Part shown: piece after piece, positions 12,074-57,121 of the stretch | How the letters are laid out: each line of letters starts with the position of its first letter | Position numbering within the stretch: position 1 is the first letter of the stretch | Origin: Promethearchaeota archaeon | GTDB taxonomy: Archaea > Asgardarchaeota > Heimdallarchaeia > Hodarchaeales > Hodarchaeaceae | Direction of reading: 5' to 3' | Assembly: GCA_048938105.1 (NCBI GenBank) | Contig: JBHLMN010000016.1 | Location: 32,001 to 96,000 of the forward strand | Length of the DNA stretch: 64,000 bases | The notes under the pieces: model-generated | The model's database searches: none | Seen by the model: the letters and a program-made list of their open reading frames with translations, nothing else | What the model was told of the DNA's origin: nothing | Made by a program: the position numbers and the translations under genes

Positions 12074-13402
12074 GTGCGACATACTAATTCGAGCAAGGCA
12101 ACTAGCATTAAGAAAGAGGAATGTTTATTGAGCAAACTGAAGAATTCTTGGATCATAATAGTCATGGTATTCTTTCTCAATCTTCTTACTATAAATAATT
12201 CATATTTAAATCCTTTAATAGTTCAGGGAACAGTTAAACCCACGATTGAATCTGAAATCATTATTGGTATTGATTTATACCACCAAAGTGATATTAATAC
12301 TAGTGAGATCACTAATTTAACGTCTATTCTTAATACTACCTTTAGTTCGCAACAAGTTGTGTATCTTAAGGAGAAATTCACTTCCGAGAATTTAGCAGGT
12401 ATAGATGTATTAACTATATTAGCACCAACCTTAAGATTCGATCCTGAAACGGAAGTAGTGGTCATAGAAGAGTTCATAAAGAAAGGTAACTCCTTACTAA
12501 TAGCTTCTGGGTATAGAAACCAAACGAGAGAGCCATCGAATGACATCCTGAATGTTTTTGGTTTAAGATTCAATTATTCCAGTTCTATTATATCAGAAAA
12601 GGCCTTGGCTCGAAATTTCACAACGCCAGTTACTCCTTTAACTGAAAACATCTCCCAAATCATATGTCCAAATGGACTGGGAATTTCATTAAATAAATCA
12701 AAACTAGAAAGTTATCAAACTCCAGCTATAGTGTATTATAACCCTATTCTAGTTGTTAATTCCGAGAAAGCTCCATCGGAGAATAATACTTTGATTTCAA
12801 CCCTTGAGTTTGAAAATGGAGCCCGAATATTAGCTATTGGATCAGCAGACATGTTTAATAACAGTTTCATTGAACCTCTTGCCAATGCTACTAGTATTTT
12901 CTTAGATAACACAGATTTTATAACGAATGCTATAAGGTGGTTAGGAAGAAATACTGGACTAATGAATTTTTATAATCCATGGGTGGATTTAGATGAGCAA
13001 TCAATTGATATTGGAGAAGTAATTCATGGGAATGTCACATTGGTAAATTCTCAAAATCAAAGTCTTTCACAGGTACATCTAATCATCACGCTTGAACGAA
13101 CAGGAGCAATTCTGAGTTCAAGAATTATGCATATGTTTCCTAATAATGCTTCAAATTATTTTGGTTGGGTGAGTACAGAAGAATTAAGTTATGGATATTG
13201 TGATGTAGTATTCATCGCTAGTCGGGTCGGTTATCTGCCTGTGGAATTAAGTGCTGGGCGTATATACTTAAAACCCCCATTTCCCTCACCGAAACCACCA
13301 AATACAGCTCTCCAGGGTTTATTTTTGGCATCTTTTCTCCTTTTTTTATCAGACACAATAGTCATTTATTTGAATTTAGGGAAGAAAAAACCAATAGAAT
13401 AA
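12074..13402 (+). CDS. single-pass exported protein with GldG/IFT52/OST48(WBP1)-like domain
   Basis: Signal-like hydrophobic stretch; FIKKGNSLLI..NDILNVFGL and GARILAIGSADMFNN..N..F..N.IRW; many N-x-S/T sequons; C-terminal TM. Confidence 0.55.
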   Translation: MRHTNSSKATSIKKEECLLSKLKNSWIIIVMVFFLNLLTINNSYLNPLIVQGTVKPTIESEIIIGIDLYHQSDINTSEITNLTSILNTTFSSQQVVYLKEKFTSENLAGIDVLTILAPTLRFDPETEVVVIEEFIKKGNSLLIASGYRNQTREPSNDILNVFGLRFNYSSSIISEKALARNFTTPVTPLTENISQIICPNGLGISLNKSKLESYQTPAIVYYNPILVVNSEKAPSENNTLISTLEFENGARILAIGSADMFNNSFIEPLANATSIFLDNTDFITNAIRWLGRNTGLMNFYNPWVDLDEQSIDIGEVIHGNVTLVNSQNQSLSQVHLIITLERTGAILSSRIMHMFPNNASNYFGWVSTEELSYGYCDVVFIASRVGYLPVELSAGRIYLKPPFPSPKPPNTALQGLFLASFLLFLSDTIVIYLNLGKKKPIE

Positions 13403-16738: not shown

Positions 16739-17074
16739 ATGAGTTCAGATCTTGAAGGATGGTTTAATCTTCCTAAATCAATCAAATTGCTGGATATCTC
16801 TCTTATTGGCTATGGTTTCATCTTGATCATTGCCATATTATTATATATGAGCGTACTTGACCATACTGTACAGAATTTGATGCCTATATTTCTTACAGCC
16901 ATACTTTTGTTGATCACATGGAATTTTCGGACACAATTATCAAAAACACATATATCAAAAGAAGAATTTGACCCTGGAGTCCAAAAACGATACTTTCTCG
17001 AATGGTTCATTATTTGCCTGCTTATTATTGTGATTATAGGAGTTATTCTCATTGTTTATCCAGTAACATATTAA
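16739..17074 (+). CDS. small 3-TM membrane protein
   Basis: Hydrophobic segments; AGAGGA upstream of the ATG. Confidence 0.65.
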   Translation: MSSDLEGWFNLPKSIKLLDISLIGYGFILIIAILLYMSVLDHTVQNLMPIFLTAILLLITWNFRTQLSKTHISKEEFDPGVQKRYFLEWFIICLLIIVIIGVILIVYPVTY

Positions 17075-17176: not shown

Positions 17177-17257
17177 ACATTCGCTGTATGATGATGTTAT
17201 CCCCGGATGAGTTGTGTATCAACAATGAATATATGAAGAGCCGTCTGAAGTGAATGT
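17177..17257 (+). ncRNA. box C/D guide sRNA targeting the 23S rRNA peptidyl-transferase region
   Basis: 9-bp terminal stem ACATTCGCT/AGTGAATGT; box C ATGATGA (17188-94); guide TGTTATCCCCGG; D' ATGA; GTTG/CAAC stem; C'-like ATGAATA; guide GAAGAGCCG; box D CTGA (17245-48). Confidence 0.85.
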
Positions 17258-17300: not shown

Positions 17301-17585
17301 ATGAAGAAGGACTTATTAGAAATTCTAGCCTGTCCAATATGCAAGAACCCCGAATTGGAATTATACATCTTTAAAGAGGATGGGGTCGAAATTGAAACTG
17401 GACTTATTGTTTGTTCAGAGTGTAATCGCTTTTATCCAATCAAAGGTACAATACCAGTTATGTTACCAGATGATTTGAGAAAAAAGGATGAAGATCTAAA
17501 ATTTCTTAGATCTAATCAGGAAAAAATTCCAGCTAAGGTTCTTACTGAAGGAAAACCTTTTTCATTGGCTAGCACTCAAAAATAA
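17301..17585 (+). CDS. Trm112-family methyltransferase activator
   Basis: LLEILACPICK...G.IVC..CNRFYPI...IPVMLP. Confidence 0.9.
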   Translation: MKKDLLEILACPICKNPELELYIFKEDGVEIETGLIVCSECNRFYPIKGTIPVMLPDDLRKKDEDLKFLRSNQEKIPAKVLTEGKPFSLASTQK

Positions 17586-17795: not shown

Positions 17796-18031
17796 GAAAT
17801 ATTTTTGACATTACACATGACATTGATTGCTAATACAGGACAAATAACCTCACAAGCTCGACATTCAAAGCATAAGCTGGGATCTGTAATTTTAATGGTT
17901 CCTTTAGGAGTTTTCTCATCAAAATTTCCTTGAATTATAATCTCTGCAGGACAGCTTCGGATGCATTTTAGACACTTAATACAGATATTTTGGTTGATTA
18001 TAATCTTTTGAGGGATATTTGTCCACCTCAT
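17786..18031 (-). CDS. 2[4Fe-4S] ferredoxin
   Basis: Two CxxCxxCxxxCP motifs. Confidence 0.9.
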   Translation of the reverse strand: MRWTNIPQKIIINQNICIKCLKCIRSCPAEIIIQGNFDEKTPKGTIKITDPSLCFECRACEVICPVLAINVMCNVKNISAP

Positions 18032-20103
18032 TTAGTAAGCAATGAACGTAGATCAATTAAAACCTTATCGACTTCGTTGTTCGCCTTACGAAGCTGTTTA
18101 TCATAATTGATTTTTAGTTTCGCATAGGCATCTTTACTGATTCTCTCCTGTGTTTTTTTTCGTTCGAGTGATTCAATATTTTGTAGAATATCTTCTCGAT
18201 TAGCTTCCGCAACTTCGATGGATCTCATAGCTATTCTATATCGTGGTCCTTTTTCTGATAATTTTTTTGATACTGATACAATTGAACGATCGATTCCTTT
18301 TTGACGATTTCCTAGAATTATCCGGGTTTGTTCGTACTCTCGTTGACTCATTCTCTTTGATTTTCGTTTTCGATCAAGTCTTAAGATTTGTTCTCTGATT
18401 GCAGTTTTTTCTTCATATGCTTTAACAAACTCCTTGATTAAATCTAAAGGTATTTCTTCTAATGTCAATCTTTTTGGTCTAAAACCGAACGAAAGATTTC
18501 TAAAAATCGTATAAGCCAAACCCAGAAGTAAAAACAAAATACAGATCGAGAGAGGAACGTTAATAAAATAAAGAAGAGGTAGACTAAAATCGATATTGAG
18601 ATATTGATTGCTGAGAGGGGTTAGATCTTTGAAAATTATTCTGAAACCAGTTTTATCGAAGATCCCAAGGAGTTCTTTCTCTCGAATTCGAGAATTATAA
18701 GTTGAATTTCTTAAAGTTATTTCTTCTATGGATCTTACTATACTAGTCAAGTTGTAACTCGAACCATGAGGTAGTAATAGATTAAATTCAAATCTTTGAA
18801 TAGTCCAATTGAAGTTCATTGACAATGGGATTCTTAATTGAGCTTTACCTCCTCCTAGGTCCTTTACGAGATCTGAAACTTCTTCTTGATAAGATAAGTG
18901 TAAATCATATTTTTCATTATCTTCTATTTGGACTCTCGGCTTAATACTCAGTACTTTTTTACTAATGATAGAATCAATAGAGACGGTTGGCGTGAGATTC
19001 CCATATTTATCATGTAAGCTAATTTTTTTAGCACTTTCAGGCAAGTAAAAATTAATTTGTGGAAAATTTGATCCTCCAAGGGTTGTTGAAATGGTAGATC
19101 CTGATTTAATACCAATATTATGAATTGCGATTTCATATTCAGTATTGACATATCCCCATTCCGATACGGTAACAACAGATTTCATCTCTGTGAACTCAAT
19201 TTTTGTATTTGCTTGTTGAAAATAGGTGAAAGAGAGATAAGATGTGAGATTAGCGGCTAGAGTCGGGATATAAACTGGTATAAAAGGTCGATTTTGGAGG
19301 AAAGTAAGATTATAATTTCCAAATTCAGACATATTTAATGAAGATCTGTTAATACTTGAAATTTCAGTGATATTTTCAAAAATTAAGCCATATGATGTAT
19401 CTTTTGAGAAATTACCTGTAAAAAAATCGCTTGTTGGTTGAATGGAATCATTTTCCACGTTAACGTCAATATCTTCCCCGACTTTCCACTGTAAATTATA
19501 AGAAGTAATTGGAAAAGATATCAGAGGAAGAAAACTGAGATTGAACTGATAAGGATAGGTTGCCTCTTCAAGTTTAGCCTTCTCTTCAAATGTTATTGCA
19601 TTTAGATGATCCATCTTTATAATTATTGATAGAAATTGATTTTTTTCAATTGATGGAATTTGAATAACAAATGTAGTTGATTCATTTTTTTCTATTCTAT
19701 CTATAACTTTGGTAGATTCTGCATCAGTATCATTTAGAGAATAAATTTCCAGATATTTTGAATCAACAAGTTCATGAGTTGGAATAGTGTAATTAAATGC
19801 ATCTATCGGTTGGGAAGCATTTTCAGACAAGTGCAGATGAATTTTAGTGTAAGAGGTTGTGTAACCATATGGATTGGCTATGATCACCCTACTTACGTTT
19901 ATTTCGTGACTTGTGTTGGTAAAATCATTAACATCAAAAAAATTGAGTAAGTCTTCATTGTTCTTTTCTACTTCAGCTTGAGAAGAATTCTCATTGTTTA
20001 TGGAGATTCCACGGTCAATGTTTGTATTAAGTGACACAAGAAGGGTAGAAACTATCAATGCAATGAGTAATAAATTCAAGCTGGACTCTAGTTTTCTTTT
20101 CAT
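18028..20103 (-). CDS. ribophorin I (OST1/RPN1)-like oligosaccharyltransferase subunit
   Basis: Signal peptide; two beta domains (VTVSEWGYV...I.N.G, D.YGNL, KPR, LLLPHGS); TM; cytosolic helical bundle. Confidence 0.75.
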   Translation of the reverse strand: MKRKLESSLNLLLIALIVSTLLVSLNTNIDRGISINNENSSQAEVEKNNEDLLNFFDVNDFTNTSHEINVSRVIIANPYGYTTSYTKIHLHLSENASQPIDAFNYTIPTHELVDSKYLEIYSLNDTDAESTKVIDRIEKNESTTFVIQIPSIEKNQFLSIIIKMDHLNAITFEEKAKLEEATYPYQFNLSFLPLISFPITSYNLQWKVGEDIDVNVENDSIQPTSDFFTGNFSKDTSYGLIFENITEISSINRSSLNMSEFGNYNLTFLQNRPFIPVYIPTLAANLTSYLSFTYFQQANTKIEFTEMKSVVTVSEWGYVNTEYEIAIHNIGIKSGSTISTTLGGSNFPQINFYLPESAKKISLHDKYGNLTPTVSIDSIISKKVLSIKPRVQIEDNEKYDLHLSYQEEVSDLVKDLGGGKAQLRIPLSMNFNWTIQRFEFNLLLPHGSSYNLTSIVRSIEEITLRNSTYNSRIREKELLGIFDKTGFRIIFKDLTPLSNQYLNIDFSLPLLYFINVPLSICILFLLLGLAYTIFRNLSFGFRPKRLTLEEIPLDLIKEFVKAYEEKTAIREQILRLDRKRKSKRMSQREYEQTRIILGNRQKGIDRSIVSVSKKLSEKGPRYRIAMRSIEVAEANREDILQNIESLERKKTQERISKDAYAKLKINYDKQLRKANNEVDKVLIDLRSLLTK

Positions 20104-20873: not shown

Positions 20874-22403
20874 TTGGAGGTTCATTATGTGACATCTAGG
20901 TTTCTTCAAGCTGTTCGGCCATTCATGTCAATAACCCCAGAAGTCGTTAAACCTACTCGGGAGGTGCATTTTAATGAAAAAATGGTCTGGACATTTGCTG
21001 CTCTTGTTATTTATTTTGTGATGGCATCAACACCGATTATTGGAGCTGATTTAGGAGAGAGTGACCCTTTTGCCTTTATGCGGACAATCACAGCTTCAAC
21101 TCAAGGATCCTTAGCTGAACTTGGAATTGGCCCTATAGTGACAGCGGGACTCATTATGCAGATCTTGGTGGGATCTAAAATTATTAATGTAAATATGGGG
21201 GATCCAGAAGAGAGATCTCTCTATACTGGTGCCCAAAAGGTCATGTCAGTAGCAATGACGATTATAGAGGCATCTGCTTTCTTAATTGGAGGAACCTATG
21301 GAACTGATCTCGACCCTGGAAGTCAATTAGCAATAATTACCCAATTATTAGCAGCAGGCATCATCATCATTCTACTTGATGAAATGATTCAGAAAGGGTG
21401 GGGTTTAGGATCAGGAATCTCCCTTTTTATTGCAGGAGGCGTTGGCTTACAAATTTTCCAAGGATTATTTGCAGCACAGCCTGTTGGGGAAGGATCACTT
21501 GATCCGGACTCCATGGTGACCTCATTTCGAGGGATTGCTTTTGCATTTTTCGCTTGGGCAACACAACGAGGGCCAATTGAAGCAATAGGAGCCCTATTTT
21601 TCCGCTATAGTCCATCTGAGAATGTAAATCTTCCTTCCTTATCTCTCCTCTCTGTTATTGCGACTATTGTTGTGTTTATCATTGTGATCTATTTTGAATC
21701 AATGCGGATTGAAATACCAATCTCTTATGCCCAATATAAGGGGATCCGTTCAACCTATCCTATTAAGCTCCTTTATGTATCAAATATCCCTGTTATCCTA
21801 ACTTCGGCCGTATTCGCCGATATCTACTTTATCGCTCAAATGGTCTGGAATACGGTCGGTAGACAAAATCCAAATAATCCTATAGCTGCTTTTTTAGGAA
21901 CATTTAGGATTGATGAAGCTTCTAATCAGTATGTTCCTATGGGGGGTCTTGTTTATTTCTTAACCCCCCCACGATCGCTTATTGGAGATCTTGGGGTTAT
22001 TAATCCTAGTGATCCATTGAGTTCCTTAGCTCGTGCTTTTATTTATGCTGCTATTCTAATTGTACTTTCTGTCATTTTTTCAGTTATGTGGTTAGAAACA
22101 GCTGGAATGGGGCCGCGTGATGTAGCAAGCCAGTTCTTACAATCAGGAATGCAGATGCCAGGTTGGCGTCGAAGCAAAAAGATTGTTGAACGCCGATTAG
22201 AGATGTATATTCCTACAATAGCTGTAATCGGTGGGTTATTCATTGGTTGTCTTGCAGCCTTTGCTGATTTCCTTGGAGCAATCGGTTCGGGGATGGGTAT
22301 TCTCCTCTCAGTTAGTATTATGAGACAATATTTTGAATTAATAAGTAAGGAAAGAGTCGCAGAAATGAATCCTGCTTTACGTGGTTTCCTAGGAATATCC
22401 TAG
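20874..22403 (+). CDS. secY: preprotein translocase SecY/Sec61alpha
   Basis: LAELGIGPIVTAG, KGWGLGSGISLFIA, YPIKLLYVSNIPVIL, GSGMGILL; start probably near 20889. Confidence 0.97.
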   Translation: MEVHYVTSRFLQAVRPFMSITPEVVKPTREVHFNEKMVWTFAALVIYFVMASTPIIGADLGESDPFAFMRTITASTQGSLAELGIGPIVTAGLIMQILVGSKIINVNMGDPEERSLYTGAQKVMSVAMTIIEASAFLIGGTYGTDLDPGSQLAIITQLLAAGIIIILLDEMIQKGWGLGSGISLFIAGGVGLQIFQGLFAAQPVGEGSLDPDSMVTSFRGIAFAFFAWATQRGPIEAIGALFFRYSPSENVNLPSLSLLSVIATIVVFIIVIYFESMRIEIPISYAQYKGIRSTYPIKLLYVSNIPVILTSAVFADIYFIAQMVWNTVGRQNPNNPIAAFLGTFRIDEASNQYVPMGGLVYFLTPPRSLIGDLGVINPSDPLSSLARAFIYAAILIVLSVIFSVMWLETAGMGPRDVASQFLQSGMQMPGWRRSKKIVERRLEMYIPTIAVIGGLFIGCLAAFADFLGAIGSGMGILLSVSIMRQYFELISKERVAEMNPALRGFLGIS

Positions 22404-28406: not shown

Positions 28407-28481
28407 TGGACCGAATGGGATTTGAACCCACGACCTCCTGATTGCAAGCCAGGCGCTACTTCCAGGCTGAGCTATCGGCCC
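28407..28481 (-). tRNA. tRNA-Ala(TGC)
   Basis: Intronless 75-nt cloverleaf, G3:U70 pair, loop CT-TGC-AA. Confidence 0.95.
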
Positions 28482-44457: not shown

Positions 44458-44730
44458 GTCAATCACCCCGAGCTCAAACCTCAGGGCTTTTTCGGTGACG
44501 AGAAAGAGTAATTGGTTGATTAGCCACAGAAAAGTTGAAGGAATAGGTAATTATGAAATCAACAGTATCTAAGTTATCAGGAGAGTTCAGGAACGCACCA
44601 AAAGATGCTTCTCTAGTCTCTTGCTCTGCAAATGAGGGGTTAAACAGAGAGGAAACTCTCAGTGCTCCTCATACAGTACTGCCTGATAACCTTGGCGAAG
44701 AGAACCAACTCCGTAATACTACGGAGAGAC
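44458..44730 (+). ncRNA. omegaRNA (HEARO-like) scaffold of IscB
   Basis: GTCAATCACC...GGTTGATTAGCC first stem; GATGCTTCTCTAGTC..GCTCT; TTAAACAG-GAGGAAACTC-CAGTG; GATAACCTTGGCGAAG; terminal hairpin CTCCGTA..TACGGAG. Confidence 0.85.
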
Positions 44731-57013: not shown

Positions 57014-57121
57014 TGGGCCCACCCGGATTTGAACCGGGGATCTCTCGGTTATCAGCATCGCCCGCTCTGATGAATACCCTTCAGAACGCCGAGCGCTTTA
57101 ACCAGGCTAAGCCATGGGCCC
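57014..57121 (-). tRNA. tRNA-Ile(GAT) with a 33-nt intron in the anticodon stem (57057-57089, position 30/31)
   Basis: GGGCCCA/TGGGCCC acceptor; BHB CGCT/GGCG flanked by 3-nt bulges; spliced form is 75 nt with loop CT-GAT-AA. Confidence 0.9.

What the first reader, a model, noticed from the sequence alone, without database searches (positions are those of the whole stretch)
17177..17257. snoRNA-like box C/D RNA with two guides for peptidyl-transferase-centre sites also methylated in eukaryotes
Seen: an 81-nt RNA with a 9-bp terminal stem, C, D', an internal stem, C' and D. It is longer and more stem-closed than typical 50-60-nt archaeal sRNAs. The D' guide TGTTATCCCCGG is complementary to conserved LSU CCGGGGAUAACA; the D guide GAAGAGCCG is complementary to CGGCUCUUC. 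The +5 rule gives E. coli-equivalent G2446 and C2510. Knowledge (recalled): these positions correspond to the targets of snR38/SNORD1 (yeast Gm2815) and U49/SNORD49. Inference: a possible Asgard homolog or ancestor of eukaryotic snoRNAs, combining two guides in one molecule.
Basis: partly seen in the sequence, partly recalled or inferred. Interest (0 to 1): 0.75.

Follow-up and report, generated by a model that had tools for sequence, protein, structure and literature searches.

The report
Asgard double-guide rRNA methylation RNA
This is a real, conserved small guide RNA of an Asgard archaeon, predicted to direct sugar methylation of two nucleotides in the ribosome's catalytic centre that eukaryotes also methylate; the same two-site guide is already published for another archaeon, so it is a well-supported new example of a known kind, not a proven ancestor of eukaryotic snoRNAs.

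Summary
Confirmed: an intergenic archaeal box C/D guide RNA upstream of trm112 in a Hodarchaeales genome. Boxes and both guides are invariant in 16/16 aligned congeners while spacers drift. The +5 rule gives 23S G2446 (D′ guide) and C2510 (D guide), the sites of snR38/SNORD1 and U49/SNORD49.

Corrections: the conserved D′ guide is 10 nt and pairs through one G·U, because Hodarchaeum-type 23S has G2448; the host's own copy is mostly unassembled there. The 9-bp stem is genome-specific, and the 61-nt C-to-D core is ordinary.

It is not Asgard-specific. Methanopyrus sR7 is published with the same two targets in the same order, and Methanococcus sR101 shares its first 19 nt.

New here: the same-order double guide also occurs in Odinarchaeia, a Thorarchaeia-like family and at least one more Asgard family. 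Its guides covary with each lineage's rRNA, even at the methylated base (Odin U2510 opposite guide A). Ancestry of the eukaryotic snoRNAs is plausible but cannot be decided: similarity is confined to boxes and guides, and Rfam scores are below threshold. Expression and methylation are untested.

The scan noted this RNA before in another Hodarchaeales genome (e1-5416574).

The parts
17177..17257 (+). Box C/D sRNA, whole, including this genome's 9-bp terminal stem (C-to-D core 17188-17248, 61 nt)
   Evidence: covariance-model hits at E below 1e-11 in 18 of 21 genomes of the genus
17177..17185 (+). 5′ arm of terminal stem; only a core of about 4 bp is conserved
   Evidence: 89% of cells paired, no two-sided changes
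17188..17194 (+). Box C (RUGAUGA)
   Evidence: UGAUGA invariant in 16/16
17196..17205 (+). D′ guide, 10 nt, pairs 23S 2443-2452; +5 base C17202 lies opposite G2446; U17200 forms G·U with G2448
   Evidence: covaries with rRNA 2444 and 2448 in other Asgard families
17207..17210 (+). Box D′ (AUGA; NNGA across the genus, CUGA in one genome)
   Evidence: GA invariant
17211..17223 (+). Internal 4-bp hairpin between D′ and C′ with a variable 5-7-nt loop
   Evidence: 16/16 paired and invariant, so no covariation support
17225..17231 (+). Box C′ (degenerate; UGA invariant)
17235..17243 (+). D guide, 9 nt, pairs 23S 2507-2515; +5 base G17240 lies opposite C2510
   Evidence: target present in the host 23S; invariant in 16/16; compensatory changes in Odinarchaeia and family f11
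17245..17248 (+). Box D (CUGA)
   Evidence: invariant
17249..17257 (+). 3′ arm of terminal stem
17301..17585 (+). Trm112-like gene 52 nt downstream on the same strand; conserved neighbour in the genus, different neighbours in other families
   Evidence: PF03966 E 3e-12; synteny

Best explanation
An archaeal double-guide box C/D sRNA. L7Ae binds the C/D kink-turn and the C′/D′ motif, Nop5-fibrillarin assembles on both, and the two guides pair with nascent 23S rRNA at 2443-2452 (helix 74) and 2507-2515 (helix 89/90 junction). Fibrillarin then methylates the 2′-OH of G2446 and C2510, 64 nt apart in the peptidyl-transferase centre; holding both segments may also help fold domain V. Shown here: sequence anatomy, conservation, target complementarity, guide-target covariation, presence of the protein genes. 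Inferred from the established C/D mechanism: expression, RNP assembly, methylation. It is the Hodarchaeales form of an old archaeal guide pairing, also seen in Odinarchaeia, a Thorarchaeia-like family, family f28 and Methanopyrus sR7. Both sites are targeted across archaea and in eukaryotes.
For: Boxes and guides invariant with variable spacers in 16/16 genomes. Null test 0/300. D target in the host 23S, 9/9 pairs. D′ target in 10 Hodarchaeum-type 23S sequences with one G·U; duplex -15.5 versus -16.1 kcal/mol for A2448. Covariation: Odinarchaeum has U2510 and its guide has A at +5; family f11 has GG at 2515-2516 and most of its guides CC; lineages with A2444 (Heimdallarchaeaceae, f11, f28) have guide U there and lineages with G2444 have guide C; G2448 is matched by guide C in those three families. 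Nop5 and fibrillarin genes lie side by side, and L7Ae-family genes are present. Published precedent with RNA-seq support: Mka sR7 D′ to G2720 and D to C2784, which equal E. coli G2446 and C2510 (PMC4644070).
Against: The host's own 23S lacks positions 1423-2449 in the assembly, so most of the D′ target is taken from relatives. D′ and C′ are non-canonical, and the D′ duplex carries a G·U two bases from the target, so the D′ site may be methylated less well. One congener has lost box C and part of the D′ guide and another carries the gene in two pieces, so it may be dispensable. No methylation data exist here for this lineage.
Confidence: 0.9

Rival explanations
1. Direct ancestor of eukaryotic snoRNAs: this double guide was present in the Asgard ancestor of eukaryotes and split into the single-site families snR38/SNORD1 and U49/SNORD49. 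This adds to the best explanation rather than replacing it.
For: The same-order pairing occurs in Hodarchaeales, Odinarchaeia, f11 and f28, and in degenerate form in f18. Eukaryotic guides for both sites are in the same register; Giardia GlsR6 has the same short C-guide-D′ layout. Both sites are methylated in human and Arabidopsis and, by offset, in Dictyostelium (Gm3148 and Cm3212).
Against: Rfam scores are far below threshold (snoR38 22.2 of 45 bits, SNORD49 11.3 of 37). Similarity is confined to boxes and guides, which the rRNA dictates. Guides for these sites change partners and sides freely: G2446 with C2498 in Heimdallarchaeaceae and Ignicoccus, C2510 with G2251 in Njordarchaeales and Thermoproteota. 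SNORD49 uses D′ for C2510, this RNA uses D. Hoeppner and Poole judged such cross-domain matches insufficient to infer homology (PMC3511168).
Confidence: 0.3
2. Only the D guide methylates (C2510). The D′ guide, with its G·U pair and non-canonical D′/C′ boxes, pairs with helix 74 as an anchor or folding chaperone and leaves G2446 unmodified.
For: U is kept opposite G2448 in all 17 intact D′ halves although C would pair better (-18.1 versus -15.5 kcal/mol); D′ varies as NNGA.
Against: The +5 pair itself is Watson-Crick and the register is fixed across lineages. The same U·G2448 arrangement occurs separately in family f13. Dennis et al. accept G·U in double guides.
Confidence: 0.1
3. The element acts mainly in cis as an L7Ae-bound kink-turn in the trm112 5′ leader and regulates its translation; rRNA complementarity is secondary.
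For: It lies 9-52 nt before the trm112 start on the same strand in the congeners where the start could be placed; the simple terminator scan found none between them.
Against: A cis element would not need invariant guides that covary with rRNA. Homologues in Odinarchaeia and other families lie next to unrelated genes.
Confidence: 0.04
4. Chance arrangement of UGA-rich motifs in AT-rich intergenic DNA.
For: Loose C/D-like patterns are common (114 loci), and single 9-bp guide matches arise by chance. The folding z-score is only -1.0.
Against: Invariance across the genus, the 0/300 null result, and covariation across classes.
Confidence: 0.01

Closest known systems
Methanopyrus kandleri C/D box sRNA sR7 (Dennis et al. 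2015, PMC4644070, Additional file 1)
   Same: Double guide; D′ to 23S G2720 and D to C2784 of their alignment (E. coli G2446 and C2510); same order and same register; expressed (coverage 5100).
   Different: GC-rich, shorter D′-C′ linker, different boxes; one mismatch in its D′ guide; D guide adjusted to Methanopyrus rRNA. Orthology versus convergence not resolved.
Methanococcus maripaludis sR101 (same paper)
   Same: Box C plus the whole D′ spacer identical over 19 nt (17188-17206); target G2446.
   Different: Canonical CUGA D′; its D guide has no predicted C2510 target.
Ignicoccus hospitalis sR414 and sR473 (same paper)
   Same: Target G2446 and C2510 respectively.
   Different: Two separate RNAs; G2446 is served from the D box and paired with C2498.
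Eukaryotic snR38/SNORD1/snoR38 (Rfam RF00213) and Giardia GlsR6 (RF02475)
   Same: D′ guide in identical register for yeast Gm2815, human Gm4362, Arabidopsis Gm2805.
   Different: Score 22.2 of 45 bits; no C2510 guide in the Rfam consensus; no similarity outside boxes and guide.
Eukaryotic U49/SNORD49 (Rfam RF00277, clan CL00062)
   Same: Guide in identical register for human Cm4426 and Arabidopsis Cm2869.
   Different: Score 11.3 of 37 bits; uses the D′ box, not D; no G2446 guide.

Membership tests
Archaeal box C/D sRNA (2′-O-methylation guide) | Boxes C, D′, C′, D in order with 10-13-nt spacers | tested here: met
   C and D canonical, D′ NNGA, C′ with invariant UGA; spacers 12 and 13 nt
Archaeal box C/D sRNA (2′-O-methylation guide) | At least 9 bp guide-target complementarity with a Watson-Crick pair at +5 | tested here: met
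   D guide 9/9 with host 23S; D′ guide 10 pairs including one G·U with Hodarchaeum-type 23S; host D′ target only partly assembled
Archaeal box C/D sRNA (2′-O-methylation guide) | Boxes and guides conserved over spacers; guides covary with targets | tested here: met
Archaeal box C/D sRNA (2′-O-methylation guide) | Host encodes L7Ae, Nop5 and fibrillarin | tested here: met
   PF01798 and PF01269 adjacent on contig C38; two PF01248 genes, not sorted into L7Ae versus L30e
Archaeal box C/D sRNA (2′-O-methylation guide) | Expressed as a small RNA, bound by L7Ae, directs methylation | not testable with these tools
   needs RNA data or biochemistry
Mka sR7-type double guide (G2446 + C2510) | D′ guide to G2446 and D guide to C2510 on one RNA, in this order | tested here: met
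Mka sR7-type double guide (G2446 + C2510) | Common descent with Mka sR7 | tested here: inconclusive
   No same-order double guide found in 141 Thermoproteota and 101 Thermoplasmatota genomes searched with the model or 301 by strict pattern; methanogen lineages could not be searched
Rfam snoR38/SNORD1 (RF00213) | Covariance-model score at or above gathering threshold | tested here: not met
   22.2 versus 45 bits
Rfam snoR38/SNORD1 (RF00213) | Same target nucleotide and guide register | tested here: met
   guide aligned in register with the D′ box; site table in PMC3511168
Rfam SNORD49 (RF00277) | Covariance-model score at or above gathering threshold | tested here: not met
   11.3 versus 37 bits
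Rfam SNORD49 (RF00277) | Same target nucleotide and guide register | tested here: met
   64-nt spacing of the two sites in E. coli, human and Arabidopsis numbering

The most novel reading that the evidence does not exclude
The G2446 + C2510 double guide is a vertically inherited gene of the Asgard common ancestor, kept in Hodarchaeales, Odinarchaeia, a Thorarchaeia-like family and others, and split on the way to eukaryotes into snR38/SNORD1 and U49/SNORD49. That would trace individual snoRNA families across the archaea-eukaryote boundary.
Probability: 0.3. Interest if true: 0.65.

Novelty: new member of a known kind. Interest (0 to 1): 0.37.

Why it matters
My searches of the paper library found no description of Asgard C/D guides (open-access papers only), and no snoRNA family has been firmly traced into archaea (PMC3511168). 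This RNA gives a clean prediction of two peptidyl-transferase-centre methylations in Hodarchaeales, proposed as the closest relatives of eukaryotes (own knowledge). It also gives natural guide-target covariation at the methylated base itself, and a case of a guide keeping U opposite a changed rRNA base. It shows that both sites are old and pan-archaeal, so a shared site alone is no evidence of an Asgard-eukaryote link. The family can be tested with recombinant proteins, and in Odinarchaeia or Thorarchaeia material if any is available. It does not reveal a new mechanism.

Tried and rejected
Rfam at gathering threshold: no hit at the locus. Alternative C′ at 17233-17239: rejected, it would leave a 5-nt spacer and overlaps the invariant guide. 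Host D′ target: not assembled; laying contigs of four runs on the contig end did not reveal the upstream letters; five congeners had no assembled domain V. The 23S piece in congener G001 (A2448, 75% identity to the host, altered D target) looks misbinned and was set aside. Expression: no RNA holder listed, which is no evidence either way. First alignment had strand errors (redone). Model R1 and one search had pairs mis-registered; R1 was run only within the class, where it found nothing convincing outside the genus; corrected R2 and the broader R3 were used afterwards. R3 was trained on f1, f8, f11, f18 and f28 members, so hits in those families are partly by construction. The strict double-guide pattern in Thermoproteota (0/301) is insensitive; it would miss the Odin and f11 forms too. 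A loose genome-wide C/D scan was too noisy to count host sRNAs (27 loose double hits; with two references 7 real versus 1-6 shuffled), so enrichment for eukaryotic sites was not measured. The first E. coli 23S fetched had indels and was replaced by K-12 rrlB. The sigma-70 promoter scan is uninformative for archaea, and no conserved TATA box was evident upstream in congeners. Covariation within the two stems is not shown: pairs are invariant or change on one side only.

Full report
Observation. The 81-nt element lies at 17177-17257 on the + strand, between a 111-aa gene without a Pfam match (16739-17074) and a Trm112-like gene (17301-17585, PF03966 E 3e-12). Its parts are box C 17188-17194, a 12-nt spacer, box D′ AUGA 17207-17210, a 4-bp hairpin, a degenerate C′ 17225-17231, a 13-nt spacer and box D 17245-17248, closed by a 9-bp stem. 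Rfam has no hit at threshold.

Host. The Trm112 protein is 70-86% identical to proteins of Hodarchaeales genomes, including Ca. Hodarchaeum mangrovi. The genome encodes adjacent Nop5 and fibrillarin genes and two L7Ae-family genes.

Is it real? Yes. A covariance model finds it at E below 1e-11 in 18 of 21 genomes of the genus, upstream of trm112 in the loci examined. In 16 aligned copies the UGAUGA of C, the 10-nt D′ guide, the GA of D′, the hairpin stem, the UGA of C′, the 9-nt D guide and box D are invariant, while the letters beside the guides and the loops vary. Of 114 C/D-like loci in the genome, only this one has two guides that hit one rRNA within 100 nt with at least 18 Watson-Crick pairs; 300 shuffled rRNAs gave none.

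Targets. Against E. coli K-12 rrlB, the fifth base upstream of D′ (C17202) faces G2446 and the fifth upstream of D (G17240) faces C2510. The D target is in the host's own 23S and pairs 9/9. The host contig starts at A2450, so the D′ target was read from one congener and nine metagenome contigs that share the host's downstream sequence. All ten have G at 2448, so the guide pairs with one G·U two bases from the target, at a cost of about 0.6 kcal/mol relative to A2448. G2448 is the majority state in the Asgard 23S genes sampled. Family f13 also keeps a U guide opposite G2448, so the wobble appears to be tolerated (inference).

Wider family and covariation. A corrected model and a broader one find the same RNA, with both guides in the same order, in Odinarchaeia (4/4; G082 is Ca. 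Odinarchaeum yellowstonii), in family f11 (28/33; Thorarchaeia by my inference from family size and GC content), and in f28 (1/1). Family f18 (3/3) has it with a shifted, possibly non-productive D guide. Guides follow each lineage's rRNA. Odinarchaeum has U2510 and its guide carries A at exactly +5. Family f11 has GG at 2515-2516 (one 23S read) and most of its guides have CC; f11 and f28 D guides carry one mismatch at G2508. Where rRNA has A2444 and G2448 (Heimdallarchaeaceae, f11, f28) the guide has U and C at those places. This is the strongest evidence for the targets. Other Asgards keep the sites with other partners: Heimdallarchaeaceae use a D′ guide for G2446, in several genomes with a C2498-type D guide; Njordarchaeales use a D′ guide for C2510 with a G2251-type D guide, or in one genome with a G2446 guide in swapped order. 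Family f14 (Lokiarchaeia by inference) gave only one marginal hit in 31 genomes.

Mechanism. By the established archaeal pathway, L7Ae binds the two kink-turn motifs, Nop5-fibrillarin assembles, and fibrillarin transfers a methyl group from SAM to the 2′-OH at +5 on each side: Gm2446 and Cm2510, 64 nt apart in domain V. Double guides with targets within 100 nt are the archaeal norm (PMC7994747, PMC4644070). Anatomy, pairing, covariation and protein genes are shown here. Expression, binding and methylation are inferred.

Comparison with eukaryotes. The Rfam consensus guides of snoR38, Giardia GlsR6 and SNORD49 align in the same register relative to their boxes, but the scores are 22.2 of 45, 12.7 of 75 and 11.3 of 37 bits. 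Hoeppner and Poole list snR38 sites Gm2805, Gm4362 and Gm2812 and U49 sites Cm2869 and Cm4426 (PMC3511168); in Arabidopsis and human the pair is 64 nt apart, as in E. coli numbering. Dictyostelium has Gm3148 and Cm3212 from separate snoRNAs (PMC8817022); equating Cm3212 with C2510 is my inference from the offsets. It works like snR38 plus U49, but it is not a member of either family.

Comparison with archaea. In Dennis et al. 2015 (PMC4644070) alignment positions in this region equal E. coli plus 274. Methanopyrus kandleri sR7 is listed with D′ to G2720 and D to C2784, the same two sites in the same order. Methanococcus maripaludis sR101 is identical to our RNA over box C and the whole D′ spacer (19 nt). 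Ignicoccus sR414 and sR473 target G2446 and C2510 separately. In 141 Thermoproteota and 101 Thermoplasmatota genomes I found many single guides for either site, joined to other partners, but no same-order pair. The sites are therefore pan-archaeal. The pairing is common in Asgards and published from one euryarchaeon.

Verdict. A new, well-supported member of a known kind: an sR7-type double-guide C/D sRNA. The claim of ancestry to eukaryotic snoRNAs is open (about 0.3). It gains from the spread across Asgard classes. It loses because all similarity is dictated by boxes and rRNA, guides change partners readily, and non-Asgard archaea hit the same sites. I reached the sR7 match before consulting the scan's notes, which record the same RNA and the same verdict in another Hodarchaeales genome. 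Interest 0.37.

Noticed in passing
L054 (G000 C8:44000-54756): The host 23S 3′ part starts exactly at A2450, is interrupted near position 2575 by an insert of about 320 nt, and two further matches to LSU model positions 2721-2973 lie at C8:46367 and C8:27759. The 16S gene on C9 also carries inserts.
   Followed up: partly
L058-L077, L214: Heimdallarchaeaceae 23S genes carry an insert of about 335-425 nt between 2449 and 2450, and one f11 genome has a shorter insert at about the same place. This is inside the G2446 guide's target, so pairing of the full guide would need splicing first.
   Followed up: partly
23S position 2448 across Asgard genomes: A2448, near-universal beside the catalytic A2451, is G in most Asgard 23S genes sampled (Hodarchaeales, Heimdallarchaeaceae, Njordarchaeales and others) but A in Odinarchaeia and f18.
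   Followed up: partly
L016 and L131 (G012 C488): This congener's sRNA is in two pieces: the 5′ half on one strand, and the D guide with box D about 1.6 kb away on the other strand. Insertion with inversion, or misassembly.
   Followed up: no
L021:1485-1561 (G020): Copy with an intact 3′ half but no box C and a degenerate D′ guide.
   Followed up: no
G157 C45:21883-22074 and G203 C38:1047-1240: Two f11 genomes carry tandem duplicates of the sRNA about 127 nt apart.
   Followed up: no
G000 C11 near 157710 (-), C9 near 80616 (+), C9 near 67675 (+), C11 near 62650 (+), C20 near 25118 (+): Other well-formed C/D sRNA candidates in the host, including a G2251 P-loop guide and a 16S G1051/G1197 double guide; several have a long D′-C′ hairpin.
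   Followed up: partly
window 44458-44709 (+): HEARO RNA (RF02033, 115.7 bits), suggesting an IscB-type element nearby.
   Followed up: no
window 57014-57121 (-) and 28407-28481 (-): Two tRNA genes, the first with an intron in the anticodon loop.
   Followed up: no
window 12074-13402 (+), 18028-20103 (-), 20874-22403 (+): OST48-like gene (weak PF03345), a 691-aa membrane protein without a Pfam match, and SecY/Sec61 lie close together: a possible translocon and glycosylation cluster.
   Followed up: no
L079 (G001 C57): 23S fragment only 75% identical to the host's, probably a misbinned contig.
   Followed up: no
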